A DNA stretch of 64,000 nucleotides, taken from an uncultured Alphaproteobacteria bacterium. GTDB lineage: Bacteria; Pseudomonadota; Alphaproteobacteria; Rickettsiales; UBA1997. A program made the position numbers and the translations under genes. Of the stretch, positions 14,063 through 53,083 are shown in pieces. Numbering within the stretch: the stretch's first letter is position 1; each line of letters begins with the position of its first letter. The notes under the pieces were generated by a model. The model was not told the origin of the DNA. It saw only the letters and a program-made list of their open reading frames with translations, and ran no database searches. Where the stretch lies: contig CAIZZE010000008.1 of the NCBI GenBank assembly GCA_903937405.1, forward strand, positions 8,641 to 72,640. Direction: 5' to 3'.

Positions 14063-16864
14063 ATGATAAAACTACTAAACAATCGCGAGTTAATGATTAA
14101 TCAAAATCCCGAACAAATAGCCAGAGACGAAATAGACAAGCAACTAAGAGATTGTGGCTGGATAGTTCAAGATATTAAGAAAATAGATCTCTTTGCCACT
14201 CTTGGTGTTGCAGTTAAAGAATATTCAACTGACGTCGGCCCAGCTGACTATGTTTTATTTGTTGGCGGAAAGGCTTGTGGAGTAATTGAAGCAAAGCGTG
14301 AAGAAGAGGGTCACCGAATCAACATTCACGAAGAGCAAGGTGAAAATTACGCCAAATCGCAATTAAAATATTTAAAAAATGAACCACTTCCTTTTGTTTA
14401 CATAAGCACCGGCAAGCTAAATCGATTCACCGATTTCAACGATCCAAAACCAAGAGCGAGAGAAGTATTTAATTTTCATCGCCCCGAAACTCTTAGCCAA
14501 TGGCTTAAAGAAAAATCACTCAGAACAAGATTATTAGATTTGCCAAATCTGCCGACAGAATCTTTGAGAGATTGCCAAATTAGAGCCATCAACAAACTAG
14601 AAATTTCATTCAAAGAAAATCGTCCCAAGGCCTTGATACAAATGGCGACAGGTTCTGGAAAAACTTTCACCGCCATCACCTTCATTTATCGTTTGTTAAA
14701 ATACGCAAAAGCCAAACGAGTTTTATTTCTAGTAGATACCAAGAACCTTGGCGAACAAGCCGAGCAAGAATTTATGTCATTTATCCCCAATGATGACAAT
14801 CGAAAATTTACAGAACTTTACGCCGTTTCTCGCTTAAAATCGAGCCACATTCCAAAAGATAGTCAAGTCTGCATCAGCACAATTCAGCGCCTTTATTCGG
14901 TTTTAAAAGGCAAAGAATTGGACGAAAAAGCTGAAGAAGAAAACCCGCATGAAGCCAAGTGGCAACCAAAAGCAATTCCACCTCTCGAATATGATTCAAA
15001 AATGCCAATCGAGTTTTTTGATTTTATTGTAATCGATGAATGTCACCGCAGCATTTACAATCTTTGGAAACAAGTTTTAGATTATTATGATGCCTTTCAA
15101 ATTGGCTTAACCGCAACTCCAGACAAAAGAACAATTGGCTATTTTAACCAAAACATCGTCAGTGAATATTCTCACGAAATGGCGGTTGTTGATGGCGTAA
15201 ATGTGCCCAGCAAAGTTTTTATCATCGACACCAAAATCACCAAAGAAGGCGCAACCATTCCAGCTTTAGAATATGTTGAACATCGCGAAAAACTAAGCCG
15301 TAAAAAGCGCATCGAATTGCAAGATGAAGATGAGCAATATTCAGGAAAACAGCTTGATCGCGAAATAGTAAACACAAACCAAATCAGAACCGTAATCAAA
15401 ACCTTCAAAGAAAATTTACCTAAAATTTTTATCGATCGCTTTGACAAAGATGGTATTTTTGAAGTTCCAAAAACTTTAATTTTTGCCAAAACCGACAGCC
15501 ACGCAGACGACATCATTCAAATTGTTCGCGAAGAATTTGCCGAAGAAAATAAATTCTGCAAAAAAATCACTTACAACAGCGAAGACCCAAAAAGCACCTT
15601 ATCAGAATTTCGCGGCAGCTTTTATCCAAGAATTGCCGTCACGGTTGATATGATTGCAACTGGCACCGACGTTAAGCCTTTAGAATGTTTGCTTTTTATG
15701 CGCGACGTAAAAAGCCGCAACTATTTTGAACAAATGAAAGGTCGCGGCACCAGAACCATCGATCTCGACACTTTGCGAAAAGTAACGCCAACCGCCAAAC
15801 TAACCAAAGATCACTTTGTTATTTTTGACGCAATTGGCGTTTCAAAAAGCTTAAAAACCGATATTCGCCCTTTAGACAAAAAACCATCAGCGCCTTTAAA
15901 AGATTTGCTTCGCGCCATTGCAGTTGGCGCAAGAGATGAAGAGTTGTTCACCACAATTGCCAGCCGCTTAGCGGGTTTAGACAAACAATTAACTGAAAAA
16001 CAAAAGCTAGAATTTACAAAAAAAGCCAATGGCAAAACAATTTCTCAAGTTGCCAAAGATCTTCTCGAAGCCTTTGATCCAGATATTTTAGAAGAAATTG
16101 CTGACAAAGTAGAAAATGAAAAAGCCAATCAAGTGCCAGAAGAAATCGCAAGAAAAATCAAATTCAAATTTGAAGAACTGCAAAACCAAGCTGCCAAAGT
16201 TTTCACCGGCGAGCTAAATGAATTTATCGAAAACGCTCGCAAAACTCTTGAACAAAAAATTGATCTCAGCAATCCAGACGAAGTAATATTTGCGGGCTGG
16301 AGCCAAGAAAACAAAGACAAAGCCCAAGAATTAATAAACTCTTTTGAAGAGTGGATTTTAGCCAATAAAGACGAACTCAAAGCTTTGCAAATTTTCTACA
16401 ATCAACCCTTTCGCCGCCGCGAACTTAGTTTTGCTGACATCAAGCAAGTTTTAGAAAAATTAAAAACTGAAAAACCAATTCTTAATCCGCTTAATGTTTG
16501 GAAGGCCTTTGAAGCAAATGGAGAATCTGCTGGAGTGGTGGATAACGAACTAACAGCTCTAATGTCGCTAATTCGCAAAAGCAGCGGAATTGACCAAGCA
16601 CTCACCAACTACAATAAAACCGTAGATAAAAACTTTCAAAACTGGGTTTTTAAAAAACAGGCAGGAGCAACAAAATATAATGAAGAACAAATGCAATGGC
16701 TGCGCTTAATTAAAGATCACAACGCCGCCAGCTTTCACATTGAAAAAGACGATTTTGATTTAAACCCTTTCAACGCCAAAGGCGGACTTAGCAAAATGTG
16801 GCAGTTATTTGGCAGTCAAAGCGATGCAATTATTGATGAATTAAATGAGGCTTTGTCAGAATAA
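14063..16864 (+). CDS. hsdR: type I restriction endonuclease subunit R (EcoEI-like, with long C-terminal domain)
   Basis: N-terminal PD-(D/E)xK nuclease (ADYVLF...GVIEAKRE). Helicase motifs MATGSGKT, DECHRS, GLTATP and QMKGRGTR. Followed directly by hsdS and hsdM. Confidence 0.9.
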   Translation: MIKLLNNRELMINQNPEQIARDEIDKQLRDCGWIVQDIKKIDLFATLGVAVKEYSTDVGPADYVLFVGGKACGVIEAKREEEGHRINIHEEQGENYAKSQLKYLKNEPLPFVYISTGKLNRFTDFNDPKPRAREVFNFHRPETLSQWLKEKSLRTRLLDLPNLPTESLRDCQIRAINKLEISFKENRPKALIQMATGSGKTFTAITFIYRLLKYAKAKRVLFLVDTKNLGEQAEQEFMSFIPNDDNRKFTELYAVSRLKSSHIPKDSQVCISTIQRLYSVLKGKELDEKAEEENPHEAKWQPKAIPPLEYDSKMPIEFFDFIVIDECHRSIYNLWKQVLDYYDAFQIGLTATPDKRTIGYFNQNIVSEYSHEMAVVDGVNVPSKVFIIDTKITKEGATIPALEYVEHREKLSRKKRIELQDEDEQYSGKQLDREIVNTNQIRTVIKTFKENLPKIFIDRFDKDGIFEVPKTLIFAKTDSHADDIIQIVREEFAEENKFCKKITYNSEDPKSTLSEFRGSFYPRIAVTVDMIATGTDVKPLECLLFMRDVKSRNYFEQMKGRGTRTIDLDTLRKVTPTAKLTKDHFVIFDAIGVSKSLKTDIRPLDKKPSAPLKDLLRAIAVGARDEELFTTIASRLAGLDKQLTEKQKLEFTKKANGKTISQVAKDLLEAFDPDILEEIADKVENEKANQVPEEIARKIKFKFEELQNQAAKVFTGELNEFIENARKTLEQKIDLSNPDEVIFAGWSQENKDKAQELINSFEEWILANKDELKALQIFYNQPFRRRELSFADIKQVLEKLKTEKPILNPLNVWKAFEANGESAGVVDNELTALMSLIRKSSGIDQALTNYNKTVDKNFQNWVFKKQAGATKYNEEQMQWLRLIKDHNAASFHIEKDDFDLNPFNAKGGLSKMWQLFGSQSDAIIDELNEALSE

Positions 16865-18093
16865 TGATTGAAGAAAGTAAATTGCCGAAAGGCTGGGAAG
16901 TGAAGAAGTTGGGTGAGGTTTGTTTGACAACGAGTGGTGGAACACCAAACAGAGGAAATAAAGAATTCTATGAAGGCGCTATCCCTTGGGTTAAATCTGG
17001 CGAGTTAGACAGAGGTCTAATTTTGGAGACGGAGGAAAGAATTTCTGAAGAGGCAATTAAAAATTCGAGCGCAAAAATATTTCCTAAAGGAACTTTATTG
17101 ATTGCTCTGTATGGTGCGACAATCGGAAAGTTAGCCTTTCTTGGTATAGATGCAGCCTCAAACCAAGCGGTATGCGGCATCTTTAAGAGCGAAAAAATAA
17201 ACTCAAACTATCTGTTCAATTTTCTTTTTTATAAGAAACCAACTCTAGTTAAACAAAGTATTGGTGGTGCCCAGCCAAACATTAGTCAGGGAATTTTAAA
17301 AAATTTAGAAATTCCGATTCCATCAATAGATGAGCAACAAAAAATCGTCACAAAAATTGAAGAGCTTTTTAGTCAGTTAGAAAATGGCAAACAGCAACTT
17401 TTAACCGCACAAAAACAACTAAAAACCTACCGCCAAAGCCTACTAAAAAGTGCCTTTGAAGGCAAACTAACCAATCAAAATCTAAAAGCCGGCGAATTGC
17501 CGAATGGGTGGAAAACGTTAAAAGTTCTTGAGCTTGGAGAAATATCAACAGGATCGACACCGTCAAAATCCAATCCTGCATTTTATTCGAATAAATTTCC
17601 TTTTTACAAACCAACTGACTTAGAAGCTGGGTACAATGTTAGAAAGTCATCGGACAATTTATCGGACTTGGGAATTAAGGAAGCTAGATTTCTTCCAGCT
17701 AACTCAATACTCGTAACTTGTATAGGTGCAACAATAGGAAAAACAGGAATCATTCGGAGAGAAGGAGCTAGTAATCAACAAATAAATACAATTATTCCAT
17801 CAAAAAATCTTGATCCAAATTTTATTTATTACCAAGCGATTGCACCGAAATTTCAGAAGACAATCAAAGACAATTATTCTCAAACAACTTTACCAATTTT
17901 AAATAAGTCAAAATTTCAAAATCTTGAGATGAATATTTGTTCACTTCCCGAACAACAAAAAATAGTCGCCATCTTAGAATCAAAACTAACCATCTGCGAC
18001 AAAATAGAAGAAACCATCAAAACCAGTTTACAACAAAGCGAAACCTTGCGCCAAAGCATTCTAAAAAAAGCTTTTGAAGGGCGGTTGGTTTAA
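16864..18093 (+). CDS. hsdS: type I restriction-modification specificity subunit
   Basis: Two target-recognition domains separated by duplicated conserved helices (EQQKIV...LRQSLLKSAFEGKL and EQQKIV...LRQSILKKAFEGRL). ATGA overlap with the hsdR stop. Confidence 0.9.
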   Translation: MIEESKLPKGWEVKKLGEVCLTTSGGTPNRGNKEFYEGAIPWVKSGELDRGLILETEERISEEAIKNSSAKIFPKGTLLIALYGATIGKLAFLGIDAASNQAVCGIFKSEKINSNYLFNFLFYKKPTLVKQSIGGAQPNISQGILKNLEIPIPSIDEQQKIVTKIEELFSQLENGKQQLLTAQKQLKTYRQSLLKSAFEGKLTNQNLKAGELPNGWKTLKVLELGEISTGSTPSKSNPAFYSNKFPFYKPTDLEAGYNVRKSSDNLSDLGIKEARFLPANSILVTCIGATIGKTGIIRREGASNQQINTIIPSKNLDPNFIYYQAIAPKFQKTIKDNYSQTTLPILNKSKFQNLEMNICSLPEQQKIVAILESKLTICDKIEETIKTSLQQSETLRQSILKKAFEGRLV

Positions 18094-18120
18094 ATTAAAG
18101 AAAATTAAATTATTAAAAAA

Positions 18121-19611
18121 ATGAGCAAAAATACTTCTTCAATAGTTTCAAAAGTTTGGAGCTTTTGTAATCCTCTTCGCGATGTTGGTGTTGGTTATGG
18201 CGACTATTTAGAACAACTTACTTATTTGCTGTTTTTGAAAATGGCTGATGAATATGTCAAGCCTCCGCATAATAGAGAAAATAAAATTCCAGCTGGTTTT
18301 GGTTGGGAAAGTTTAACCAACAAAAAAGGCGCAGAGCTTGAGCTGCATTATTCAAGATTGCTTCGTGAGTTAAGCAGTGAAAAAGGAATTTTGGGACAAA
18401 TTTTTGTTAAGAGCCAAAATAAAATTCAAGATCCAGCAATGCTTGCCAAGATTATTGACATGATTCACTTAGAGCAATGGTTGGTAATGGGCGCTGATGT
18501 GAAGGGTGATATTTATGAAAGTCTTTTAGAGCAAAATGCGCAAGATGTGAAAAGTGGAGCGGGACAATATTTTACGCCGCGTCCTTTAATTAAAGCCATG
18601 GTTGAATGCATTAGACCTTTGCCAAATAAAACAATTGCTGACCCAGCTTGCGGCACTGGCGGCTTCTTTTTAGCGGCTTATGATTATTTGGTTGCCAATA
18701 ATAAGTTTGATAAAGAGCAAAATAAGTTTTTGAAGAACTCAACTTTTTATGGAAATGAAATTGTTGCAAGCACGCGCCGATTAGCTTTGATGAATTTGTT
18801 TTTGCATAATATTGGCGACATTGACAGCGCAAATTTTATTTCTCCTGCCGACGCTTTAATTGCAGCCTCGCCAACAACTTATGATTATATTTTAGCTAAC
18901 CCGCCATTTGGCAAAAAAAGCAGCCAAACTTTTACCAACGAAGAAGGCGAGCAAGAAAAAGATGATTTAACCTACAATCGCCAAGACTTTTGGGCAACCA
19001 CCAGCAACAAACAGTTAAACTTTGTTCAGCATATTAGAACGATGTTAAAAACCACCGGACTTGCTGCCGTTGTGGTTCCAGACAATGTTTTGTTTGAAGG
19101 CGGAGCTGGTGAAACTGTGCGCAAAAAGCTTTTAGAAACAACTGATCTTCACACAATTTTGCGCTTACCAACGGGAATATTTTATGCTCAAGGCGTGAAA
19201 GCCAATGTGATTTTCTTTGATAATAAACCAGCCAGCAAAACCGCTTGGACAAAGGAAGTTTGGGTTTATGATTACAGAACAAACATTCACCACACTCTAA
19301 AAAGAAACCCGCTTAAATTCGAAGATTTAAAAGATTTTATTGAGTGCTACAACCCGCTAAACAGAAATAAACGCAAAGAAACTTTTAATGCAGAAACAAA
19401 CCCCGAAGGGCGTTTTAGAAAATTTTCTTACGAAGAAATTATTGCTCGCGATAAAACCAGTTTAGATATTTCTTGGATTAAAGATAAATCCTTGGCTGAT
19501 CTTGATAATCTTCCAGATCCAGAAATTTTGGCTGAAGATATTATTGAGAATTTAGAAGCTGGGCTTGCGAGTTTTAGAGAGATTGCGGCGGTTTTAAGTA
19601 CAAGTAAATAG
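18121..19611 (+). CDS. hsdM: type I restriction-modification N6-adenine DNA methyltransferase subunit
   Basis: GQYFTPRPL, DPACGTGGF (SAM motif I) and ANPPFG (motif IV, NPPF). Confidence 0.95.
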   Translation: MSKNTSSIVSKVWSFCNPLRDVGVGYGDYLEQLTYLLFLKMADEYVKPPHNRENKIPAGFGWESLTNKKGAELELHYSRLLRELSSEKGILGQIFVKSQNKIQDPAMLAKIIDMIHLEQWLVMGADVKGDIYESLLEQNAQDVKSGAGQYFTPRPLIKAMVECIRPLPNKTIADPACGTGGFFLAAYDYLVANNKFDKEQNKFLKNSTFYGNEIVASTRRLALMNLFLHNIGDIDSANFISPADALIAASPTTYDYILANPPFGKKSSQTFTNEEGEQEKDDLTYNRQDFWATTSNKQLNFVQHIRTMLKTTGLAAVVVPDNVLFEGGAGETVRKKLLETTDLHTILRLPTGIFYAQGVKANVIFFDNKPASKTAWTKEVWVYDYRTNIHHTLKRNPLKFEDLKDFIECYNPLNRNKRKETFNAETNPEGRFRKFSYEEIIARDKTSLDISWIKDKSLADLDNLPDPEILAEDIIENLEAGLASFREIAAVLSTSK

Positions 19612-19981: not shown

Positions 19982-21139
19982 ATGAAACAAATCGAAATTA
20001 CTAAGCAACTTGTTAAAGACCATAATTTAACTGAAGGCGAATATGCCAAAGTTTTAGAAATTTTAGGGCGCGTGCCAACAATTACCGAACTTGGAATTTT
20101 TTCGGCAATGTGGTCGGAACATTGTTCTTATAAATCGACTAAAAAACATTTGAAAACCATGCATACAAGCGCGCCGTGGGTTATTTGCGGACCGGGTGAA
20201 AATGCTGGCGTAATTGATATTGGCGACGGACAAGCCGTAATTTTTAAAATGGAAAGCCACAATCACCCATCTTTCATCGAGCCTTATCAAGGTGCGGCGA
20301 CTGGTGTTGGTGGAATTTTACGCGACGTTTTCACAATGGGTGCGCGCCCAATTGCTAACTTAAACGCGCTGCGTTTTGGCGATATTAATCATCCAAAAAC
20401 CAAACAATTAGTTAACGGCGTTGTTTCTGGAATTGGTGGTTACGGCAATTGTGTTGGCGTTCCAACTGTTGGCGGCGAAGTTACTTTTGATAAAAGTTAT
20501 AATGGCAATATAATCGTAAATGCGATGACGGTTGGTTTAGCTGATTCGGATAAAATTTTCTATTCTGCTGCTTCTGAAATTGGTGCATCAGTGGTTTATG
20601 TTGGTTCAAAAACCGGTCGCGATGGCATTAATGGCGCGGTTATGGCGTCCGACGAATTTAAAGAAGGTGACGAAGATAAACGCCCAACTGTTCAAGTGGG
20701 AGATCCTTTTGCTGAAAAACTTTTACTCGAAGCCTGCATGGAATTGATGCAGTCAGATTGCATTCTTTCAATTCAAGATATGGGAGCAGCTGGTTTGACT
20801 TCTTCATCTTTTGAAATGTCGGGCAAAGGCGGCACTGGAATTGAGCTTAATTTAGAAAATGTGCCGCAACGCGAAACCGGCATGACACCTTATGAAATCA
20901 TGCTTTCTGAATCTCAGGAAAGAATGTTGATGATTATCAAACCGGAACGCGAAGATTTTGCGAAACAAATTTTCGAAAAATGGGGACTTGATTTTGCTGT
21001 AATCGGAATTGTAACTAATAGCGGACGTGTAGTTATTAAAATGAATGGTGAAGTTTACGCCGATATTCCATCAGAACCACTTTCTGAAAGCGCTCCGGAA
21101 TATGATCGCCCTTGGATTGATACTAGAACTAAAAATTAA
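19982..21139 (+). CDS. purL: phosphoribosylformylglycinamidine synthase subunit PurL, N-terminal half only (385 aa)
   Basis: [40 protein letters not shown] and DMGAAGL. Ends at ...[15 protein letters not shown] in the inter-half linker. Start at ATG 19982. Confidence 0.9.
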
Positions 21140-21165
21140 AATAAGATTAGCTGTAAATACAGTGT

Positions 21166-21307
21166 GAGATTTTGGTGATAAGATCGAGCCAGCGTCTCGA
21201 CGACCTAAAATATGTAACGCTCGACGAAAATAAAAAAGTTTAGGTCGTCGAGCAAAGCGCTTCAGCGCGTCGTCGAGACGCTAGCTCGATCTCACCAAAC
21301 CAATCTC
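21166..21307. repeat. 142-bp palindromic element family HP3
   Basis: About 40-bp imperfect terminal inverted repeats, GAGATTTTGGTGATAAGATCGAGCCAGCGTCTCGACGAC ... GTCGTCGAGACGCTAGCTCGATCTCACCAAACCAATCTC, with an inner palindrome GACGACCTAAA...TTTAGGTCGTC. Single copy in this window, 27 bp after the stop of the purL N-half. Confidence 0.85.
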
Positions 21308-21322
21308 TTAAACAAATTCTAA

Positions 21323-22546
21323 ATGAAAATCCTCAAAAAAATTCGCACCTCGCTTTATCTTCAAGTTTTAATTGCTGTAATTTTTGCAATCATTTTTGGC
21401 ATATTTTCCCCACAAGCTGCACAAAACATGAAGCCTTTGGGAGATGGCTTTATTGCCTTAATTAAAATGTGCGTCCCGCCAATTATTTTCTGCACAATTG
21501 TGAGCGGAATTGTTGGTGGCGCTGATTTAAAAAAAATTGGCAAAGTCGGTTTAAAAACTTTGATTTATTTTGAAGTTTTAACCACAATTGCTTTAGTGAT
21601 TGGTTTAGCAGTTTCACATTTTATTGCGCTGGGCAAAGGCATGAATATTGATGTTGCAACTCTTGATCCAAATACAGTTGCAGCTTATGTAAAACCTCAC
21701 TCCGGCTTTGTAGAATTTCTTTTAAACATCATTCCAACCACAATTTTTCAGGCTTTTGTCAGCGGCGAAATTTTGCCAATTTTACTTGTGGCAATTCTTT
21801 TTGGTTTCGCTTTATCAGCCTTAGAAAATCGCTCTAAACTTGTAATTGAAGGCATTCATGAAATTTCAGAAATCCTTTTTAAAATAATTTCTTTCATCAT
21901 GAAGCTCGCACCAATTGGCGCTTTTGGTGCGATGAGTTTTACAATTGGAAAATATGGAATTGATGCGCTTGCGCCTCTCGCAAAGCTGATGCTCGCATTT
22001 TACGCCACCTGCATTTTATTTGTGATTTGTGTTTTGGGTTTGGTTCTAAAAATTTGCGGCTCCAGCATTTTCAAGCTTTTATCTCACATTAAAGAAGAAA
22101 TTTTTTTGGTACTCGGAACTTCATCTTCCGAATCAGCATTACCAGGCGTGATGAAAAAAATGGAAAATTTCGGTTGTCCAAAATCAATTGTTGGTTTGGT
22201 AATTCCCGCCGGTTATTCTTTCAATCTTGATGGCACCTGTATTTATTTTACGATGGCCATTATTTTTATTGCGCAAGCCTTTAATATTGAGCTTTCGGCG
22301 GCGCAGCTTTTAAGTATAATTTTCATTTTGCTTTTCACTTCTAAAGGTGCTGCTGGCGTTACTGGAAGCGGCTTTGTGACTTTGGCGGCAACTTTATCGG
22401 TTGTACATACAATTCCACTAGCCGGACTGGCGATAATTTTAGGAATTGATCGCTTCATGTCGGAAGCGCGTGCGATTACAAATCTCATTGGTAATGCAAC
22501 CGCTTGTGTGGCGGTTTCGAAATGGGAAAAAGAATTTAAGAATTAA
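21323..22546 (+). CDS. dctA: C4-dicarboxylate/amino acid:cation symporter (DAACS family)
   Basis: SLYLQVLIAVIFAIIFG...MKPLGDGFIALIKMCVPPIIFCTIVSGI matches the DctA N-terminus closely. 407 aa, polytopic. Confidence 0.9.
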   Translation: MKILKKIRTSLYLQVLIAVIFAIIFGIFSPQAAQNMKPLGDGFIALIKMCVPPIIFCTIVSGIVGGADLKKIGKVGLKTLIYFEVLTTIALVIGLAVSHFIALGKGMNIDVATLDPNTVAAYVKPHSGFVEFLLNIIPTTIFQAFVSGEILPILLVAILFGFALSALENRSKLVIEGIHEISEILFKIISFIMKLAPIGAFGAMSFTIGKYGIDALAPLAKLMLAFYATCILFVICVLGLVLKICGSSIFKLLSHIKEEIFLVLGTSSSESALPGVMKKMENFGCPKSIVGLVIPAGYSFNLDGTCIYFTMAIIFIAQAFNIELSAAQLLSIIFILLFTSKGAAGVTGSGFVTLAATLSVVHTIPLAGLAIILGIDRFMSEARAITNLIGNATACVAVSKWEKEFKN

Positions 22547-22553
22547 CTAAATC

Positions 22554-24071
22554 ATGGTTTTTAGCTCCAATATTTTTCTCTTCGCGTTTTTACCGCTAAC
22601 GCTGTTTTTCTATTTTTTATTGCCCAAAAAATTGGCGACAAAAAATGTTAGAAACGCCGTTTTACTGATTGCCAGCTTGCTTTTCTACGCTTGGGGCGAA
22701 ATGCATTATTTATGGCTTTTGCTACTTTCCATCACGGCGAATTATTTTTTCGGTATCGCAATTTATAACTCGAAAAAGCCCTCTTTGAAAAAGAGGGTGG
22801 ATGATCGCGTTAGCGATCAGACGGGTGATTTAAAATTAGCATTAAATCCTCCGGCACTGCGTGCCACCTCCTTTTTCAAAGGAGACTTTGTTGTGATCGG
22901 TTTTGCGATTACATTTAACCTAGCGCTGCTCGGTTATTTCAAATATTCCAACTTCTTAATTGAAAATTTAAACCAGCTTTTCTCGCTACAAATCACCAAT
23001 AAAAAAATCAGCCTGCCAATTGGAATTTCATTTTTCACCTTTCACGCTATTTCTTATTTAATCGATATTTATCGTAGAAAATGTCGCCCACAAAAAAATA
23101 TTTTTGATTTGGCGCTTTACATAGCTTTCTTTCCGCAGCTGATCGCTGGACCAATTGTGCGTTATAATTTTATCGAAAAATATTTGACCAAACGCAGTCA
23201 TAATTTCTTCGCTACAACTTATGGAATTCGCCGTTTTATAATTGGTTTGGGCAAAAAAGTTATCATCGCCAATCCACTTGGCGAATTTGCTGATGTGATT
23301 TTTTCTTCGCCTTTAACTGAAATAAATTCACCTTTAGCTTGGGCTGGTCTTGTTTGTTATACATTGCAAATCTATTTCGATTTTTCAGGCTATTCCGACA
23401 TGGCTGTTGGTCTAGCGCGAATGTTTGGTTTCAAATTTCCGGAAAATTTCAATTATCCTTATATTTCAAGATCAATAAAAGAATTTTGGAGAAGATGGCA
23501 CATGTCGCTTTCTGCTTGGTTTCGCGACTATGTTTATATTCCTTTAGGCGGAAATCGCGTTTCAATAACTCGTCAATATTTCAATTTAGTTTTAGTATTT
23601 TTTCTTTGCGGATTGTGGCACGGTGCAAGCTGGAATTTCATAATTTGGGGCATGTTTCACGGCGTATTTTTGGTATTTGAAAGATTAAAAGTTGGACAAA
23701 ATTTTTTAGATTTTATGCCAAAAATCATGCAGAATTTCTATGCGATTTTTGTGGTGATGATTGGCTGGGTTTTTTTCCGCAGTCCTGATTTAACTCATTC
23801 AATTGGCTTTTTAAAAACGATGTTTTTGGGAAATGAAATTGCCGCGATTTCCAATGATGTGGCAAGATTAATGAGATCGCATTTTATCTGGATGTCTTTT
23901 ATTTTGGCCTTGATTGGATTTTCACCTTTGATGAAAAAATTGGTGCAGAAATTTTCTAAAAACAGAATTTTTATGTTGAGTTTTGATGCGGCTTTAATTG
24001 CGATTTTAGTGTTATCTTTAACCAGACTTTCGGCAGCAACGCATAATCCGTTTATTTATTTTCAGTTTTAA
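22554..24071 (+). CDS. MBOAT family O-acyltransferase (AlgI/PatA-like)
   Basis: MVFSSNIFLFAFLP N-terminus, LGYFKYSNF, FFPQLIAGPI, FWRRWHMSLS and the catalytic-His region WHG. Contains an in-frame palindromic insert (see 22779-22884). Confidence 0.9.
   Translation: MVFSSNIFLFAFLPLTLFFYFLLPKKLATKNVRNAVLLIASLLFYAWGEMHYLWLLLLSITANYFFGIAIYNSKKPSLKKRVDDRVSDQTGDLKLALNPPALRATSFFKGDFVVIGFAITFNLALLGYFKYSNFLIENLNQLFSLQITNKKISLPIGISFFTFHAISYLIDIYRRKCRPQKNIFDLALYIAFFPQLIAGPIVRYNFIEKYLTKRSHNFFATTYGIRRFIIGLGKKVIIANPLGEFADVIFSSPLTEINSPLAWAGLVCYTLQIYFDFSGYSDMAVGLARMFGFKFPENFNYPYISRSIKEFWRRWHMSLSAWFRDYVYIPLGGNRVSITRQYFNLVLVFFLCGLWHGASWNFIIWGMFHGVFLVFERLKVGQNFLDFMPKIMQNFYAIFVVMIGWVFFRSPDLTHSIGFLKTMFLGNEIAAISNDVARLMRSHFIWMSFILALIGFSPLMKKLVQKFSKNRIFMLSFDAALIAILVLSLTRLSAATHNPFIYFQF
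22779..22884. repeat. palindromic element family HP5, inserted in frame in the MBOAT gene
   Basis: Arms CCCTCTTTGAAAAAGAGGGTGG and CCACCTCCTTTTTCAAAGGAG are inverted copies, and each is a hairpin. Inner hairpins are GATCGCGTTAGCGATC and GGCACTGCGTGCC. Translated as PSLKKRVDDRVSDQTGDLKLALNPPALRATSFFKG. Confidence 0.75.
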
Positions 24072-24077
24072 TTTTGA

Positions 24078-25169
24078 ATGAAACAAAACAAACTCTTAAT
24101 CACAGCTTTTGCCATAATTCTCGCGCTTCCAGCGTTGGATAGTATTTTTCATTTTTCGCCGGTTAAAGACTTGTTCGAAAAGCGTCAGCCAATTGCAAAA
24201 CCTGATTTTCCACAAAATTTTACCGAGTTAAAAACTTTTCCTAAAAATTTTGAAAAATATTTTAACGATAATTATGGATTTCGCAAAAGTCTGGTTTCGT
24301 TAAACAGTCACATGATGGACAAAGTTTTTGATGAATCTCCAGATGCGCGCGCTGTTGTTGGTAAAGATGGTTGGTTTTATTTTGATAATCATAATTCACT
24401 TCTCGATGCTCGTGGAATGGCGACAATCAGTGATGAAATGATTGAACGCGGCGTAAAATCATTTGGAGAAAACTGGAAAAAAATGCGTGAAAAAAATATC
24501 AATTATTTGCTGATAATTGCCGCCGATAAAAGTACAATTTATCCCGAGTTTTTGCCTGATTATATTAAGCCAAATGAGCCGCACAGAATTGATAAATTTT
24601 TAAATGCGCTAAAAGCAAAATATCCTGATTTTCCCGTAGTTGATTTGCGTCCGACTTTAAAAAAAGCTAAAGAAAACGAAGTAATCTACCACAAAACTGA
24701 TACGCATTGGAACAAGCGTGGCGCTCATTACGGCTATGTTGAAATTGCTAAAGCACTAAAAATAAAACCGCATTTGCGGGAAGATTTTTTAGAAAGAGAA
24801 GATGAATTTATTCGCGGTGATATTTCTGATATTATGGGCGTTGAAACTACAAATCGTAATTATGAATTAACTCCGAAATTCACCCAAACTTACCATCGCG
24901 TTATGCCAACTGCGGCAGAAATTAAGTTTTTTCACAAATTAAATTTCTTCGAAAATTCTAATAAAAATTTGCCGGTTATTTTTGGTTATCAGGATTCTTA
25001 TTTCGGCGATCTATTTGGCTATATGTCAGAACATTTTTCCAAAAGTTTTTATGATAATGAATTTCCTTGTGATCTAAACTATGAAATCCTAAAAAACTAT
25101 CATCCAAACGTTGTGATTCAAGAGTTCTGGGAAGGTAGGGTGGAAGTGGTTTTGAGTCAGTGTAAATAA
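24078..25169 (+). CDS. AlgJ/AlgX-like SGNH-fold O-acetyltransferase partner of the MBOAT protein
   Basis: N-terminal signal/anchor, GKDGWFYF, and YHKTDTHWNKRGA (DTHW catalytic block of AlgJ/AlgX). Confidence 0.75.
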   Translation: MKQNKLLITAFAIILALPALDSIFHFSPVKDLFEKRQPIAKPDFPQNFTELKTFPKNFEKYFNDNYGFRKSLVSLNSHMMDKVFDESPDARAVVGKDGWFYFDNHNSLLDARGMATISDEMIERGVKSFGENWKKMREKNINYLLIIAADKSTIYPEFLPDYIKPNEPHRIDKFLNALKAKYPDFPVVDLRPTLKKAKENEVIYHKTDTHWNKRGAHYGYVEIAKALKIKPHLREDFLEREDEFIRGDISDIMGVETTNRNYELTPKFTQTYHRVMPTAAEIKFFHKLNFFENSNKNLPVIFGYQDSYFGDLFGYMSEHFSKSFYDNEFPCDLNYEILKNYHPNVVIQEFWEGRVEVVLSQCK

Positions 25170-25180
25170 ATTAATTTCAT

Positions 25181-25240
25181 TCTTAACTCTTAAATCAAAA
25201 GCCCTTAAATTCCAAAAATCTTAAATTTTAAATCTCAAAT
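25181..25240. repeat. short tandem CTTAAAT/YCTAAAT-type heptamer motifs in the leader of the purL C-half
   Basis: CTCTTAAATC, CCCTTAAATTCC, TCTTAAATTTTAAATCTCAAAT. The same motif family occurs at 7764-7782, 28691-28718, 47963-47980 and 55364-55443. Confidence 0.5.
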
Positions 25241-25247
25241 TTCCCCA

Positions 25248-26255
25248 ATGTCTAAAGTTCTAGAAAACCTAAAAACACTTCTTCAAGTTCCTGATCTGGC
25301 ATCTAAAAAATGGATCTATGAACAATATGATTCACAAGTAATGAATGACACTCTTTACACCCGCGGCGATGCAGCAATTGTAAGGGTTCATAACACAAAT
25401 AAAGCTTTAGCAATTTCAACTGATTGCACCCCGCGTTATGTCGAAGCTGATCCTTTTGAAGGTGCTAAACAAGCGGTTGCAGAAACTTATCGCAATATTT
25501 CAGCAGTTGGTGGAAAACCTCTCGCAATCACAAATTGTTTGAATTTTGGAAATCCGCAAAAACCAGAAATTATGGGCCAAATTGTTTTGGCAATTCAGGG
25601 AATTACCGAAGCTTGCAAAGCTTTGGATTATCCGGTGGTTTCGGGAAATGTGTCGCTTTACAACGAAACTGATGGCAAAGCAATTCAGCCAACTCCAGCA
25701 ATTGGTGGCGTTGGTTTGTTGAAAGATTTAAATAAAAGATGTGACGCTAAATTTAAAATGGCAGGTGATGCAATTTTTGTAATCGGTAAAAACGAAGGTC
25801 ATTTGGGATGTTCGCTTTATGAACGTGAAATTTTGAAAATTGCGCCGCAAAAAAATCCACCTAAAGTTGATTTAGCTGAAGAAAAAAAGAACTCAGAATT
25901 TATCCGTGAATTGATTGAAAGTTCATCAATAAACGCTTGCCACGATGTTTCGGATGGTGGTCTGTTGGTTGCTTTATTTGAAATGTGTAGTGAAAAATTA
26001 GGCTGCGATCTTGATATTTCAGAATTTGTTGGTGAAGAAAATCAAATTTTATTTTCAGAAGATCAATCACGCTATGTTGTGGCTCTTGATTGTGCAATGG
26101 TTACAGAATTTAAGAAAAAAGCTGAGAAAAAAGGAGTTTCACTTGTTAAAATCGGCGAAACTTCCAAAGAAAAAATTCGTATTTCTGGAGTTGAGGTTGA
26201 AGTTAAAGAATTAACTAAACTTAACGAAATGGTTTTTGAGAAAGCGTTTTTTTAA
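25248..26255 (+). CDS. purL: phosphoribosylformylglycinamidine synthase subunit PurL, C-terminal half only (335 aa)
   Basis: Starts MSKVLENLKTLLQVPDLASKKWIYEQYDSQV. Contains AVAETYRNISAVGGKPLAITNCLNFGNP, VSGNVSLYNET and HDVSDGGL. Confidence 0.9.
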   Translation: MSKVLENLKTLLQVPDLASKKWIYEQYDSQVMNDTLYTRGDAAIVRVHNTNKALAISTDCTPRYVEADPFEGAKQAVAETYRNISAVGGKPLAITNCLNFGNPQKPEIMGQIVLAIQGITEACKALDYPVVSGNVSLYNETDGKAIQPTPAIGGVGLLKDLNKRCDAKFKMAGDAIFVIGKNEGHLGCSLYEREILKIAPQKNPPKVDLAEEKKNSEFIRELIESSSINACHDVSDGGLLVALFEMCSEKLGCDLDISEFVGEENQILFSEDQSRYVVALDCAMVTEFKKKAEKKGVSLVKIGETSKEKIRISGVEVEVKELTKLNEMVFEKAFF

Positions 26256-26278: not shown

Positions 26279-26442
26279 ATGGACCCCGTCGTGAAGACGG
26301 GGTGACAGGCTTTAGGCTTGCCCGAAGGAATAAGCTTTAGGCTTAACCGAAGGAGCAAGCTTTAGCTTTGCCCGAAAGAACAAGTTAGAAGTATGTACAA
26401 AAAACATACTCAGTGTCACCCCGTCTTTACGACGGGGTCCAT
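26279..26442. repeat. palindromic element family HP4 with three internal 25-bp tandem repeats
   Basis: Arms ATGGACCCCGTCGTGAAGACGGGGTGACA ... TGTCACCCCGTCTTTACGACGGGGTCCAT. Internal repeats GCTTTAGGCTTGCCCGAAGGAATAA at 26309-26333, 26334-26358 and 26359-26383. Confidence 0.9.
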
Positions 26443-28771: not shown

Positions 28772-30085
28772 TTGAAATCAATTCACAAATTCATGAAATC
28801 CAAGCTTACAAAAAGACCAGATCCGGAGATAGACGAGCAGGAAGATGAAGGAGAAAGTGCGGAAGTCGGAGCAAGTGGTCCCGCGATTGCAGCGGCAAAA
28901 AAAAGTAAAATGGCGATAATCGCTGCCTCATCAATTTTGATTACGGTAGTGGTTTATTTTATGTTTTTTAAAGCTGATGAGCCAAAAAAAGAAAATCTTG
29001 AAGAAGTAGCGCCACCACCATCAAGAGTAGCGACAAGCGAGGAAGGAAAATCTCCATTTGAAATTGAAGCTCCAGAAAAAAAAGAAGATGTTTCGTTATT
29101 AGATAAGCCGGCAAAACCTGATGTTCCAACTTTACCGGAACTTCCTGAAGGAATGGAGCCGCAGTCTGAGCAAGTTCTTCCAACGGCAAATCCACAACAA
29201 AATCCTCAAGCTCCGCAGCAATTATTGCCTACGCAAAATATGCCAGGTCAGCAAAATAACAATCCGACGCAGGTTAATCCGCAAAATCCGGAAAAAACCA
29301 AAGATACTGATCCGCGCTATGCTCCAATAATTGTTTTTGGCGGCACGGCGGAGGGCACACCATCTCGTGGCGTTGGTTATGAAAATAATATTGTAAACTT
29401 GAATCAGGATCCGATCAATAAATTACAAAAAAGTAAAACTGGAGTTACTGCGACTTTTATTGGTGATCGTGCTCACACCATTGCTCAAGGTAAATTATTA
29501 AGTGCGGTTTTAGAAACGGCGATTAACACTGAAATTCCCGGCTTTGTGCGCGCAATAATTAGCCGTGATGTTTATGCAGAAGCAGGCAATCAAATTCTGG
29601 TTCCGCGCGGCTCAAGATTATTTGGAACTTATTCCAGTAAAATTACGCGCGGTCAGGGTAGGGTTGAAATAGCTTGGACGCGTTTAATCAGGCCAGATGG
29701 TGTTGACATGTCAGTTAGTTTTAATGCTTCTGATCAATTTGGCAGATCGGGAATTCCGGGAGATGTTGATAATAAATATAGTGCTCTCGTCGCCAATTCA
29801 ATGTTGACAAGTATTCTTGCAGTTGGTGGTGTTTCAGCAGCGCAGAAACTTTTAGGAAGTGGTAGTCAGTTAAATACGACAACAACTAATCCAACTCAAG
29901 GCACAACTACAACTACTGGAAGCGCTGCTAACCAAGCAATTTACGACGTAAGTAAAACAATCATTGATACTGTGGGACAGGTAATTGGATCTACACTTAA
30001 TTCCAATCCGGTTATACGTGTTCCTCAAGGTACCAGAATTACTGTGGTGGTGAATTCTGATATTAACATTCCATCAATGAAATAA
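28772..30085 (+). CDS. virB10: type IV secretion system protein VirB10 (TrbI family)
   Basis: TM segment, Pro/Gln-rich linker, then VPRGSRLFGTYSS...RVEIAWTRLIRPDG...DQFGRSGIPGDVDNKY conserved TrbI core. Confidence 0.9.
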   Translation: MKSIHKFMKSKLTKRPDPEIDEQEDEGESAEVGASGPAIAAAKKSKMAIIAASSILITVVVYFMFFKADEPKKENLEEVAPPPSRVATSEEGKSPFEIEAPEKKEDVSLLDKPAKPDVPTLPELPEGMEPQSEQVLPTANPQQNPQAPQQLLPTQNMPGQQNNNPTQVNPQNPEKTKDTDPRYAPIIVFGGTAEGTPSRGVGYENNIVNLNQDPINKLQKSKTGVTATFIGDRAHTIAQGKLLSAVLETAINTEIPGFVRAIISRDVYAEAGNQILVPRGSRLFGTYSSKITRGQGRVEIAWTRLIRPDGVDMSVSFNASDQFGRSGIPGDVDNKYSALVANSMLTSILAVGGVSAAQKLLGSGSQLNTTTTNPTQGTTTTTGSAANQAIYDVSKTIIDTVGQVIGSTLNSNPVIRVPQGTRITVVVNSDINIPSMK

Positions 30086-39537: not shown

Positions 39538-40014
39538 TTACGGATGTAAATTTACCGATTCCGTTTGATCATCGCGGAATTTCTTTAATTTTTCTGCCAA
39601 AACTTCATCTGACAAAGCTAAAATTGCAATTGCTAAAAGAGCGGCATTTTTGGCACCAGCTTCGCCAATTGCCAAACATCCAACTGGAATTCCTGCTGGC
39701 ATTTGAACTATCGAAAGTAATGAATCCATTCCTTTAAGCGCGCGGCTTTCAACTGGAACGCCAAGAACAGGAAGCTCGGTCATTGCGGCGGTCATGCCTG
39801 GTAAATGAGCGGCGCCACCAGCGCCGGCGATAATTACTTTAATGCCATTTTCTTTTGCTGATTCACAAAATTCATAAAGTCTTTTTGGAGTGCGATGTGC
39901 AGAAACAATTTTTGTTTCGTAGGCAACAGAAAAATCATCAAGAACTTTGCAGGCATGCTCCATGGTCACAAAATCTGATTTGCTGCCCATTATAATTGAT
40001 ATTTCAGGTTTCAT
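39538..40014 (-). CDS. purE: 5-(carboxyamino)imidazole ribonucleotide mutase
   Basis: [14 protein letters not shown] and [10 protein letters not shown] motifs. 158 aa. Confidence 0.95.
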
Positions 40015-51655: not shown

Positions 51656-53083
51656 ATGCCTCTTGACGAACTACATGAAGAATGTGGAATTTTTGCAATT
51701 CACGGATCTCCCGACGCTGCCGTAAATACTGCACTTGGTTTGCATGCTTTACAACATCGCGGACAAGAAGCCGCAGGCATTGTTACTATGACGGGAGATC
51801 TTTATTCGGTGCATTTCGCCGATGGTTTAGTTGCGGATAACTTTACTTCACAAAAAGTTGTAAAAAAACTCGAAGGCACTTCAGCAATTGGTCACGTTCG
51901 CTATTCAACTGCCGGTAAAAAAACCGCCCGTAATTACCAACCAATTTACGCGCAGCTTTCCTGTGGCTTTATGGCTTTAGCTCATAATGGCAACCTTACA
52001 AACGCCGACACATTGCGTAAAAGATTAATTAATCGCGGTGCGATTTTTCAATCAACTATGGACACCGAAGTTATCATTCACCTAATTGCACTTAGCTTAA
52101 AGCCAACTCTTACTGAAAAAATAATTGATGCCACCTCGCAAATTGAAGGAGCATTTTCTTTGGTGATTATTCATGAAGGAAAAATCATCGCACTGCGCGA
52201 TCCTTACGGCGTGCGTCCTTTGGTTCTTGGAAAATTGGGCGACGCTTATGTTGTGGCTTCTGAAACCTGCGCTTTCGATATTATCGGCGCTAAATTTGAG
52301 CGCGATATTGGACATGGCGAAATGATTCTTATTGATGAAAATGGCGTAAAATCCTTAAAACCATTTCCAGAAAAACCATCAAAATTTTGTATTTTTGAAT
52401 ATGTTTATTTCGCACGTCCCGACAGTTCAATCGAAGGGAAAAATGTTTATGAAATGCGTAAAAATATTGGCATTGAATTAGCGCGTGAAATTAAAATTGA
52501 TGCCGATGTTATCGTTCCAATCCCTGATTCTGGTGTTCCGGCGGCAATTGGTTATGCGATGGAATCAAAAATTCCTTTCGAACTTGGAATTATCAGAAAC
52601 CATTATGTTGGTAGAACTTTTATTGAACCTACAGATAAAATCCGCCATTTTGGTGTTAAGTTAAAACACAATGCCAATTTGTCAGTGATTAAAGACAAAA
52701 GAGTGATATTAATTGATGATAGTATTGTGCGCGGAACTACTTCGAAAAAAATCGTGCAAATGATTCGTGATGCAGGAGCAAAAGAAGTTCACATGTTAAT
52801 CGCCAGCCCGCCAACAATTTCACCATGTTTTTATGGCGTTGATACGCCGGATAAAAAAGATTTGATCGCTTCAAGCTCTTCAATTGAGCAGATCAAAAAT
52901 ATAATTGGTGCAGATCATTTGGGTTATATTTCAATTGATGGGCTTTATCGCGCGATTGCTCAGACCAAGCGTGATAATGCTAATCCGCAATATTGCGATG
53001 CTTGTTTTAGCGATGATTATCCAATTCGTTTAACTGATAAAGAAGGAGCAGAGGCTCCGCTTTTGGATTATATGAAAAAATAA
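51656..53083 (+). CDS. purF: amidophosphoribosyltransferase
   Basis: ECGIFAI (N-terminal Cys nucleophile after propeptide), HRGQEAAGI, and DDSIVRGTT (PRPP motif). Confidence 0.97.
   Translation: MPLDELHEECGIFAIHGSPDAAVNTALGLHALQHRGQEAAGIVTMTGDLYSVHFADGLVADNFTSQKVVKKLEGTSAIGHVRYSTAGKKTARNYQPIYAQLSCGFMALAHNGNLTNADTLRKRLINRGAIFQSTMDTEVIIHLIALSLKPTLTEKIIDATSQIEGAFSLVIIHEGKIIALRDPYGVRPLVLGKLGDAYVVASETCAFDIIGAKFERDIGHGEMILIDENGVKSLKPFPEKPSKFCIFEYVYFARPDSSIEGKNVYEMRKNIGIELAREIKIDADVIVPIPDSGVPAAIGYAMESKIPFELGIIRNHYVGRTFIEPTDKIRHFGVKLKHNANLSVIKDKRVILIDDSIVRGTTSKKIVQMIRDAGAKEVHMLIASPPTISPCFYGVDTPDKKDLIASSSSIEQIKNIIGADHLGYISIDGLYRAIAQTKRDNANPQYCDACFSDDYPIRLTDKEGAEAPLLDYMKK

What the first reader, a model, noticed from the sequence alone, without database searches (positions are those of the whole stretch)
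19982..26255. purL bisected into two intact ORFs by a 4.1-kb three-gene cassette
Seen in sequence: 19982-21139 encodes the N-terminal half of FGAM synthase II (385 aa, ending ...[15 protein letters not shown]). 25248-26255 encodes the C-terminal half (335 aa, beginning MSKVLENLKTLLQVPDLASKKWIYEQYDSQV). The sum of 720 aa is close to the usual single-chain PurL of about 720-740 aa. The break falls in the linker between the two pseudo-symmetric halves of the enzyme. Neither half has a frameshift or internal stop, and the C-half has its own ATG. The intervening DNA is all on the same strand: a 142-bp palindromic element (21166-21307), dctA, an MBOAT O-acyltransferase, an AlgJ/X-like gene, and a heptamer-repeat leader. 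Inference: either a very recent insertion that killed purL, or a functional two-piece PurL. The second is plausible because the halves are structural repeats, and because purE and purF in this window look intact.
Basis: partly seen in the sequence, partly recalled or inferred. Interest (0 to 1): 0.7.

Follow-up and report, generated by a model that had tools for sequence, protein, structure and literature searches.

The report
Naturally two-gene PurL, conserved lineage-wide
The purine-synthesis enzyme PurL is encoded here as two separate genes, and this is an old, selectively maintained split shared by a whole group of uncultured freshwater alphaproteobacteria, not a recently broken gene.

Summary
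The ORF at 19982-21139 encodes the N-terminal half of small PurL (385 aa). The ORF at 25248-26255 encodes the C-terminal half (335 aa). dctA, an MBOAT gene and an AlgX-like gene lie between them on the same strand.

The "recent insertion that killed purL" reading is refuted.
- The 120 best database clusters for each half are all stand-alone half-length proteins (C 329-356 aa, N 377-436 aa).
- Both halves form one monophyletic clade (100% bootstrap).
- dN/dS is 0.04-0.16, with dS from 0.42 to about 2.
- PurL motifs are invariant in 120/120 representatives of each half.
- The break always falls in the variable linker after YDRPW.
- All other alphaproteobacterial loci that cover both halves (75), and 69 soil-metagenome loci, have a contiguous PurL.

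The cassette is not shown to be the cause of the split. In relatives the halves are adjacent (172-bp spacer), separated by 2-5 genes, or unlinked.

Best reading: one ancient gene fission turned the pseudo-dimeric PurL back into a PurM-like heterodimer, so FGAM synthase would have four kinds of subunit (PurS, PurQ, PurL-N, PurL-C). Assembly and activity are inferred, not shown. I found no published description.

The parts
19982..21139 (+). purL-N. It encodes the N-terminal half of small PurL (385 aa): the FGAR-AT linker plus the A1/B1 (AIRS + AIRS_C) unit that holds the catalytic site.
   Evidence: - ORF and domains. TIGR01736 scores 587.6 against a cut-off of 525.75; NF002290 profile positions 1-367.
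- Aligns to 3VIU residues 3-368.
- Motifs SEHCSYK, ESHNHPS, DX4GAXP and DMGAAG are present in 120/120 clade representatives.
- dN/dS is 0.04-0.07.
21166..21307 (.). A 142-bp nested palindromic element in the spacer after purL-N. It belongs to a mobile repeat family and is not a conserved part of the split.
   Evidence: - Structure; fold of the 183-nt spacer that contains it, -81 kcal/mol.
- In the sister species L005, copies sit at other intergenic sites (4565-4705, 6929-6988, 6-54), and an ankyrin gene occupies this site instead.
21323..22546 (+). dctA-type C4-dicarboxylate transporter. It is variable cargo between the halves.
   Evidence: - Pfam SDF E = 1e-108; NF002461 scores 585 against a cut-off of 513.
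- Present between the halves in L005, L085, L089 and L092. Absent in L093 and L094.
22554..24071 (+). MBOAT-family membrane O-acyltransferase (DltB/AlgI-like). It is cargo, and in most relatives it lies just upstream of purL-C.
   Evidence: - Family assignment.
- MBOAT and AlgX precede purL-C in L005, L085, L088, L089, L091, L092 and L094.
24078..25169 (+). AlgX/AlgJ-like SGNH protein, the likely partner of the MBOAT protein in O-acetylation of a surface polymer. It is cargo.
   Evidence: Pfam ALGX E = 2e-21. Its pairing with MBOAT is conserved in the relatives listed for that gene.
25248..26255 (+). purL-C. It encodes the C-terminal half of small PurL (335 aa): the A2/B2 (AIRS + AIRS_C) unit, which in known PurL holds the auxiliary ADP site.
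   Evidence: - ORF and domains: (NF002290 profile positions 388-721).
- Aligns to 3VIU residues 393-696.
- All 120 best database clusters are 329-356 aa, apart from one 270-aa fragment.
- Motifs are invariant in 120/120.
- dN/dS is 0.05-0.16.
39538..40014 (-). purE. It shows another step of the same pathway is intact in this genome.
   Evidence: TIGR01162 scores 213 against a cut-off of 150.
51656..53083 (+). purF. It shows another step of the same pathway is intact in this genome.
   Evidence: TIGR01134 scores 497 against a cut-off of 350.

Best explanation
**What it is.** A single ancient gene fission in the ancestor of a diverse, uncultured, low-GC alphaproteobacterial clade. Its members come from lakes, groundwater and drinking water, and are labelled 'Alphaproteobacteria' or 'Rickettsiales bacterium' MAGs. 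The fission cut small PurL in the variable linker between its two duplicated halves.

**How it most likely works.** Each product is one PurM-like protomer, an A (AIRS) domain plus a B (AIRS_C) domain.
- The two polypeptides most likely associate through their A domains. That would rebuild the central barrel of PurL as a true heterodimer.
- PurL-N would carry the catalytic ATP/FGAR site. PurL-C would carry the auxiliary nucleotide site and the face that meets PurQ.
- FGAM synthase here would therefore have four kinds of subunit: PurS, PurQ, PurL-N and PurL-C.

**The DNA between the halves.** It has since gained, lost and exchanged unrelated genes: dctA, MBOAT/AlgX, ankyrin genes, toxin-antitoxin genes and palindromic repeats. 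In some genomes the halves have become unlinked.

**Shown versus inferred.**
- Shown: the split, its age, its distribution, and selection on both halves.
- Inferred: heterodimer assembly and enzymatic activity.
For: **Distribution**
- The 120 best clusters for the C-half are all stand-alone proteins of 329-356 aa at 72-99% identity, apart from one 270-aa fragment.
- The 120 best clusters for the N-half are 377-436 aa at 85-100% identity, with 379 aa the mode.
- The break is the same everywhere. N-halves end at ...YDRPW(I/V), and C-halves begin 4-8 residues before LENLKxLLQxPDLASKKW.

**Single origin**
- The split clade is monophyletic at 100% bootstrap for the N-half, the C-half and the two concatenated.

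**Controls**
- All 75 other alphaproteobacterial loci that cover both halves have the halves contiguous and in frame.
- 69 of 80 soil-metagenome loci related to P0371 have a contiguous PurL. In ten more the reading frame runs off the contig end, and one gave no qualifying C-half match.
- An ordinary C-half query (P0268) returns fragments of scattered length, 312-592 aa, not a tight length class.

**Selection**
- dN/dS is 0.04-0.07 for the N-half and 0.05-0.16 for the C-half, with dS from 0.42 to 2.08.
- The C/N divergence ratio is 2.65 in the split clade and 1.88 in contiguous PurLs, and the ranges overlap.
- The catalytic and PurM-superfamily motifs are invariant in 120/120 representatives.

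**Structure logic**
- Each half has AIRS + AIRS_C.
- The literature states that the synthetase domain is two gene-duplicated halves with pseudo-2-fold symmetry. The halves form a hydrophobic barrel between them. A1/B1 holds the active site and A2/B2 holds an auxiliary ADP (PMC3815217; PMC13013826).

**Pathway context**
- purE and purF are intact in the window.
- purC and purS lie downstream of purL-C in clade member L086.

**Gene order between the halves**
- The range runs from adjacent (L093, 172-bp spacer), through two to five intervening genes, to unlinked.
Against: - There is no direct evidence of protein-protein assembly, expression or activity.
- I could not scan a whole genome of the clade. 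A second full-length purL or a large purL is therefore not excluded, and purQ was not seen in the DNA I held.
- The C-half evolves somewhat faster relative to the N-half than in contiguous PurLs (2.65 versus 1.88). This could mean mild relaxation.
- The internal tree nodes are weak, so the ancestral gene order is unresolved. The role of the cassette in causing the split is unresolved for the same reason.
Confidence: 0.85

Rival explanations
1. A recent insertion of the dctA-MBOAT-AlgX cassette inactivated purL, and the two ORFs are decaying remnants.
For: The cassette lies exactly between the halves on the same strand. About 10-15 linker residues are missing.
Against: - The same split occurs in at least 120 clusters (90% identity) per half.
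- dN/dS is 0.04-0.16 while dS runs from 0.42 to about 2.
- Motifs are invariant in 120/120 representatives.
- The cassette genes themselves are conserved across relatives whose dS is above 1.
- The halves are adjacent without any cassette in L093.
Confidence: 0.01
2. The split is an assembly or binning artefact: a chimeric contig, or a sequencing frameshift.
For: The source is a metagenome. One related scaffold (L001) seemed to carry a truncated N-half.
Against: - The L001 defect is only a run of N.
- Four independent assemblies are 99.7-100% identical across the region.
- The same split is seen in at least 12 diverged loci from different studies.
Confidence: 0.01
3. The two halves are rejoined into one chain after transcription or translation, for example by a split intein or by RNA trans-splicing.
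For: None directly. It is considered only because split inteins are a known way to make one protein from two genes.
Against: - The N-half ends right after YDRPW, and the C-half begins 4-8 residues before the conserved block. This leaves no room for IntN or IntC segments.
- Pfam finds only AIRS-type domains in both halves.
- Rfam finds no intron in the window.
Confidence: 0.01
4. The halves no longer work together. PurL-N acts alone, for example as a PurM-like homodimer, and PurL-C has taken on another role or is an accessory or regulatory subunit.
For: - The halves are unlinked in several genomes.
- The C-half evolves about 2.6 times faster than the N-half.
- In known PurL, the ADP site of the second half has no proven catalytic role.
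Against: - The C-half keeps its PurL-specific motifs in 120/120 representatives and is under purifying selection.
- Its best matches are always the C-part of PurL.
- In known enzymes the ammonia channel from the glutaminase passes by the second half. A lone N-half would therefore lack the glutaminase docking side.
- The ratio of 2.65 lies within the range seen in contiguous PurLs, 1.42-3.73.
Confidence: 0.1

Closest known systems
Small PurL (FGAM synthase II; TIGR01736 / NF002290) of the PurS-PurL-PurQ complex, e.g. Thermus thermophilus 3VIU and Thermotoga maritima 1VK3/3D54
   Same: - Same domains in the same order: FGAR-AT linker, then AIRS + AIRS_C, then AIRS + AIRS_C.
- Same catalytic motifs.
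- E = 2e-131 (N-half) and 1e-69 (C-half) to 3VIU.
- purS is present in a clade member.
   Different: - It is encoded by two genes instead of one.
- About 10-15 linker residues are absent.
- The C-half falls below both NCBIfam PurL cut-offs. The database names seen for C-halves include 'AIR synthase related protein' and 'hypothetical protein'. One N-half cluster is also named 'hypothetical protein'.
PurM-superfamily homodimers (PurM, ThiL, SelD, HypE)
   Same: - Each half is one A+B protomer.
- The N-half carries the DX4GAXP signature.
- The proposed assembly through the A-domain barrel mirrors the dimers of this superfamily (PMC13013826; PMC3815217).
   Different: - It would be an obligate heterodimer of two diverged paralogous halves.
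- Only one half has a catalytic site.
- It is derived secondarily, by fission of a fused gene, not ancestrally separate.
Other lineage-wide gene fissions of multi-domain enzymes, e.g. the rpoC1/rpoC2 split in cyanobacteria and the split genes of Nanoarchaeum equitans (recalled from general knowledge, not tested here)
   Same: An essential enzyme is cut at a permissive linker. Both pieces are kept under selection, and they are sometimes unlinked.
   Different: - It affects PurL, for which I found no report.
- The cut falls exactly at the seam of an internal duplication, so it undoes an ancient duplication-fusion.

Membership tests
Small PurL (FGAM synthase II) | Domain content: FGAR-AT linker, then two tandem AIRS + AIRS_C units | tested here: met
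   Pfam. The N-half has the linker plus AIRS and AIRS_C. The C-half has AIRS and AIRS_C. Together they cover NF002290 profile positions 1-367 and 388-721.
Small PurL (FGAM synthase II) | A single polypeptide of about 720-740 aa | tested here: not met
   There are two ORFs 4.1 kb apart. The same two-gene state is seen across the clade. This is why I call it a variant and not an ordinary member.
Small PurL (FGAM synthase II) | Score above the curated equivalog cut-offs | tested here: inconclusive
- N-half: 587.6 passes the TIGR01736 cut-off of 525.75, but 641.6 falls just below the NF002290 cut-off of 648.
- C-half: 327.5 and 363.7, below both cut-offs, as expected for half a protein.
Small PurL (FGAM synthase II) | Conserved catalytic and nucleotide-binding motifs (SEHCSYK, ESHNHPS, DX4GAXP) | tested here: met
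   Present in the window's N-half and in 120/120 clade N-halves. The C-half motifs are also present in 120/120.
Small PurL (FGAM synthase II) | Partner genes purS and purQ in the same genome | tested here: inconclusive
   purC and purS lie next to the conserved downstream block in clade member L086. Neither purS nor purQ is in this 64-kb window, and whole genomes could not be scanned.
Small PurL (FGAM synthase II) | FGAR to FGAM activity | not testable with these tools
   This needs biochemistry or genetic complementation.
PurM-superfamily dimer architecture | A protomer made of an A (AIRS) and a B (AIRS_C) domain | tested here: met
   Each half has exactly one AIRS and one AIRS_C domain.
PurM-superfamily dimer architecture | Dimerisation through the A-domain beta-barrel | not testable with these tools
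   Inferred from the PurL pseudo-dimer described in PMC3815217 and PMC13013826. No multimer prediction was available.
Pseudogene / decaying gene | Frameshifts, internal stops, or dN/dS near 1 | tested here: not met
   The ORFs are intact in all 12 diverged loci examined. dN/dS is 0.04-0.16.
Split-intein trans-spliced protein | IntN and IntC (Hint) segments at the break | tested here: not met
   No extra sequence is present at either new terminus. Pfam finds no Hint or intein domain.

The most novel reading that the evidence does not exclude
The fission is more than a neutral cut. In most sub-lineages the order purL-N, then envelope and transport genes (dctA, MBOAT, AlgX), then purL-C persists on one strand. 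This could reflect a selected arrangement. Making PurL-C separately would then set the amount of active FGAM synthase and tie purine synthesis to dicarboxylate uptake or cell-surface O-acetylation. The enzyme would be the first natural four-component FGAM synthase, and it would directly re-create the heterodimeric ancestor of PurL.
Probability: 0.12. Interest if true: 0.75.

Novelty: new variant of a known kind. Interest (0 to 1): 0.55.

Why it matters
**Evolution of the enzyme.** PurL is the textbook case of a PurM-type dimer that became one chain by duplication and fusion. A large natural clade in which the chain has been cut again at that seam, with both pieces kept under strong selection, gives a ready-made system for three questions.
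- How do the halves recognise each other?
- What is the 'vestigial' ADP-binding half for?
- How does the half that faces the glutaminase communicate with the catalytic half?

**Annotation and metabolic inference.** The C-half fails the curated PurL thresholds. Some C-half clusters are named 'AIR synthase related protein' or 'hypothetical protein'. One N-half cluster is also named 'hypothetical protein'. Automated metabolic reconstructions could therefore score this lineage as lacking purL and wrongly infer purine auxotrophy. That matters for a group whose ankyrin and type IV secretion genes suggest host association.

**Genome dynamics.** The gap created by a fission can become a site where unrelated genes and mobile repeats accumulate.

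Tried and rejected
- **Apparent decay of the N-half in L001.** It turned out to be a 100-N scaffold gap.
- **Other split lineages.** I looked among the half-length, Met-starting representatives from the 50%-identity library.
  - P0268 is a singleton whose neighbours are contig-end fragments of scattered length.
  - No close relative of P0371 was found; the best match is 62% identical. Of the 80 loci fetched, 69 have a contiguous PurL, ten run off the contig end, and one gave no qualifying C-half match.
  - No second split lineage was found. P0259 and P0330 were not followed up.
- **Regulatory RNA, promoter or terminator in the spacers.**
  - Rfam gave only two tRNAs in the window.
  - Promoter-like and terminator-like hits are no more frequent than in shuffled sequence.
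- **The palindrome as the agent of the split.** It is a mobile repeat that sits at other sites in the sister species. It is absent from most relatives' spacers. L093 carries an unrelated palindrome at that position.
- **Ancestral gene order from NJ trees.** Internal nodes have 10-60% bootstrap, so the order is unresolved.
- **Literature.** Four searches and three papers gave no mention of a split purL.
- **Taxonomic naming.** Only generic MAG names were available.
- **Not attempted.** Structure prediction of a concatenated or multimeric model.
Full report
**1. The observation**

The window has intact + strand ORFs at 19982-21139 (385 aa from the ATG that homologues use) and at 25248-26255 (335 aa).
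- Pfam finds FGAR-AT_linker + AIRS + AIRS_C in the first ORF and AIRS + AIRS_C in the second.
- The NCBIfam PurL model NF002290 is matched at profile positions 1-367 by the first ORF and 388-721 by the second.
- Between them lie three + strand genes: dctA (21323-22546), an MBOAT acyltransferase (22554-24071) and an AlgX-like SGNH protein (24078-25169).
- The palindrome at 21166-21307 is real. The heptamer repeat before the C-half is weak.

Against Thermus thermophilus PurL (3VIU), the N-half covers residues 3-368 and the C-half covers 393-696. In an alignment with contiguous alphaproteobacterial PurLs, every conserved block on both sides is present. Only about 10-15 residues of a variable linker after the YDRPW motif are missing.

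The region is not an assembly artefact. Four independent metagenome assemblies carry it at 99.7-100% identity. The one apparent truncation is a run of N in a scaffold.

**2. What it is: a lineage-wide split**

Two GTDB species representatives already changed the picture.
- L005 (N-half 97% identical) has the same split. It carries an ankyrin gene where the window has the palindrome.
- L006 (92%) has an N-half of 379 aa ending ...YDRPWI*. This is followed by ruvC and a zapE-like gene, with no C-half nearby.

The protein database shows the split is general.
- The 120 best clusters for the C-half are all stand-alone proteins of 329-356 aa at 72-99% identity, apart from one 270-aa fragment.
- The 120 best clusters for the N-half are 377-436 aa at 85-100% identity. 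The mode is 379 aa.
- The new termini are the same throughout. N-halves end at YDRPW plus one residue, and C-halves start 4-8 residues before LENLKxLLQxPDLASKKW.
- C-halves within the clade diverge down to 62% pairwise identity, in about 28 sub-clusters.

Controls point the same way.
- All 75 other alphaproteobacterial loci that cover both halves have them contiguous and in frame. Three more loci lack a C-half match; two of these end within about 250 nt of the N-half match.
- Of 80 soil-metagenome loci related to another half-length protein (P0371), 69 have a contiguous PurL. In ten more the reading frame runs off the contig end, and one gave no qualifying C-half match.
- A third half-length candidate, P0268, is a singleton surrounded by fragments of scattered length.

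In neighbour-joining trees the split clade is monophyletic at 100% bootstrap for the N-half, the C-half and the two concatenated. It sits on a long stem. This points to one ancient fission.

**3. Selection**

- Pairwise dN/dS is 0.04-0.07 for the N-half and 0.05-0.16 for the C-half. dS runs from 0.42 to 2.08.
- The flanking and cargo genes give similar values.
- SEHCSYK, ESHNHPS, DX4GAXP and DMGAAG in the N-half are each present in 120/120 representatives. So are [DN]X4G[AG]XP, SGNVSLYNE and HDxSDGG in the C-half.
- The C-part diverges 2.65 times as fast as the N-part in the split clade, and 1.88 times as fast in contiguous PurLs. The ranges overlap. Any relaxation after the split is mild.
- purE and purF in the window pass their curated cut-offs.
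- purC and purS lie downstream of purL-C in clade member L086.

**4. The DNA between the halves**

Twelve diverged contexts give a series.

| Arrangement | Locus |
|---|---|
| Adjacent, 172-bp spacer | L093 |
| N - MBOAT - AlgX - C | L094 |
| N - dctA - MBOAT - AlgX - C | window, L092 |
| Same, plus a toxin-antitoxin-like pair | L089 |
| Same, plus an ankyrin gene | L005 |
| Same, plus two NAD_binding_9 genes | L085 |
| MBOAT - AlgX - C, with no N-half within 10 kb | L088, L091 |
| C-half next to secB | L086 |
| N-half with unrelated downstream genes | L006, L090 |

- Downstream of purL-C the gene order is conserved: a PlsC-like acyltransferase/hydrolase, virB10/trbI, a kinase-phosphatase gene (Pfam Kinase-PPPase), an NtrC-like gene, an NTP-transferase and fabD.
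- yebC is usually upstream of purL-N. In the window a type I restriction-modification system sits between yebC and purL-N.
- The cassette is therefore old (dS above 1 between carriers) and variable. It cannot be shown to have caused the split, because the inner tree nodes are too weak to fix the ancestral order.
- The palindrome after purL-N is a mobile repeat. The sister species has copies at other intergenic sites, and L093 has an unrelated palindrome at the same position.

**5. Mechanism**

Published structures describe the FGAM synthetase domain as two gene-duplicated halves with pseudo-2-fold symmetry. The halves share a hydrophobic barrel.
- A1/B1 holds the active site.
- A2/B2 holds an auxiliary ADP.
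- The ammonia channel from the glutaminase passes near that ADP site (PMC3815217; PMC13013826).

The cut lies exactly between B1 and A2, so each gene encodes one PurM-like A+B protomer. The most likely mechanism is non-covalent assembly of PurL-N and PurL-C into the usual pseudo-dimer, which then binds PurS and PurQ.

Covalent rejoining is unlikely.
- There is no room for intein segments at the new termini.
- Pfam finds no Hint domain.
- Rfam finds no intron in the window.

Assembly and activity are inferred, not shown.

**6. Comparison and novelty**

The product works like small PurL and carries all its tested sequence features. It fails the single-chain criterion, and the C-half fails the curated score thresholds. 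This explains database names such as 'AIR synthase related protein' and 'hypothetical protein'.

Four literature searches and three papers, including a survey of archaeal purine genes that lists split genes, gave no report of a split purL. I rate it a new variant of a known kind. Gene fission as such is familiar. This one undoes a classic duplication-fusion and is fixed in a large clade.

**7. Verdict**

- 'Functional two-piece PurL' is supported, with confidence about 0.85 for a selectively maintained two-gene PurL.
- 'Recent lethal insertion' is refuted.
- 'The cassette bisected the gene' is unproven.
- Interest is moderate, 0.55.

Noticed in passing
window 21166-21307; L005 4565-4705, 6929-6988, 6-54: The 142-bp nested palindrome after purL-N belongs to a repeat family that sits at different intergenic sites in the sister species. 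There, copies lie between MBOAT and AlgX, after purL-C, and before purL-N. It looks like a small mobile palindromic (MITE-like) element. Only one copy is in this window.
   Followed up: partly
window 22769-22800 and 22813-22888 (inside the MBOAT gene): The MBOAT gene carries an in-frame, hairpin-rich insertion of 108 nt (36 codons) that is absent from the sister species L005. A 26-nt piece of it recurs on the opposite strand inside the longer MBOAT gene of L092 (7403-7428). It is reminiscent of palindromic elements that insert in frame into coding genes.
   Followed up: partly
L093 9829-10000: In the relative where the halves are adjacent, the 172-bp spacer holds an unrelated long palindrome (spacer fold about -76 kcal/mol), preceded by a partial direct repeat of one arm. 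It sits at the same position as the window's element.
   Followed up: partly
window 14063-19611: A type I restriction-modification system (hsdR, hsdS, hsdM) sits between yebC (13173-13919) and purL-N. In relatives L085 and L093 yebC is the gene just upstream of purL-N, and in L089 and L092 two small genes, one zeta-toxin-like, lie between them. This flank is therefore also a variable insertion site.
   Followed up: partly
L041 about 11117-11461; L049 about 7055-7396: Two contiguous alphaproteobacterial PurLs carry an in-frame insertion of roughly 100 aa in the same inter-half linker. This shows that the linker tolerates large changes.
   Followed up: no
window 26305-26384: A 25-bp tandem repeat (3.2 copies, 78% matches) lies in the spacer after purL-C.
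   Followed up: no
window 28772-30085 and 62316-63245; L091 1-6158: Type IV secretion genes are scattered in the window (virB10/trbI and virB9, far apart). Relatives carry several large ankyrin-repeat genes. Together with 37% GC, this hints at a host-associated (protist-associated?) lifestyle, yet the window encodes leuC/leuD, purE and purF.
   Followed up: no
window 40053-46082 (- strand): A 2009-aa ORF lies next to purE. It was not examined.
   Followed up: no
proteins P0259 and P0330 (50%-identity library): Two further Met-starting, roughly half-length PurL C-part proteins come from other, unidentified organisms. Whether they are true stand-alone halves or truncated gene calls was not checked.
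   Followed up: no
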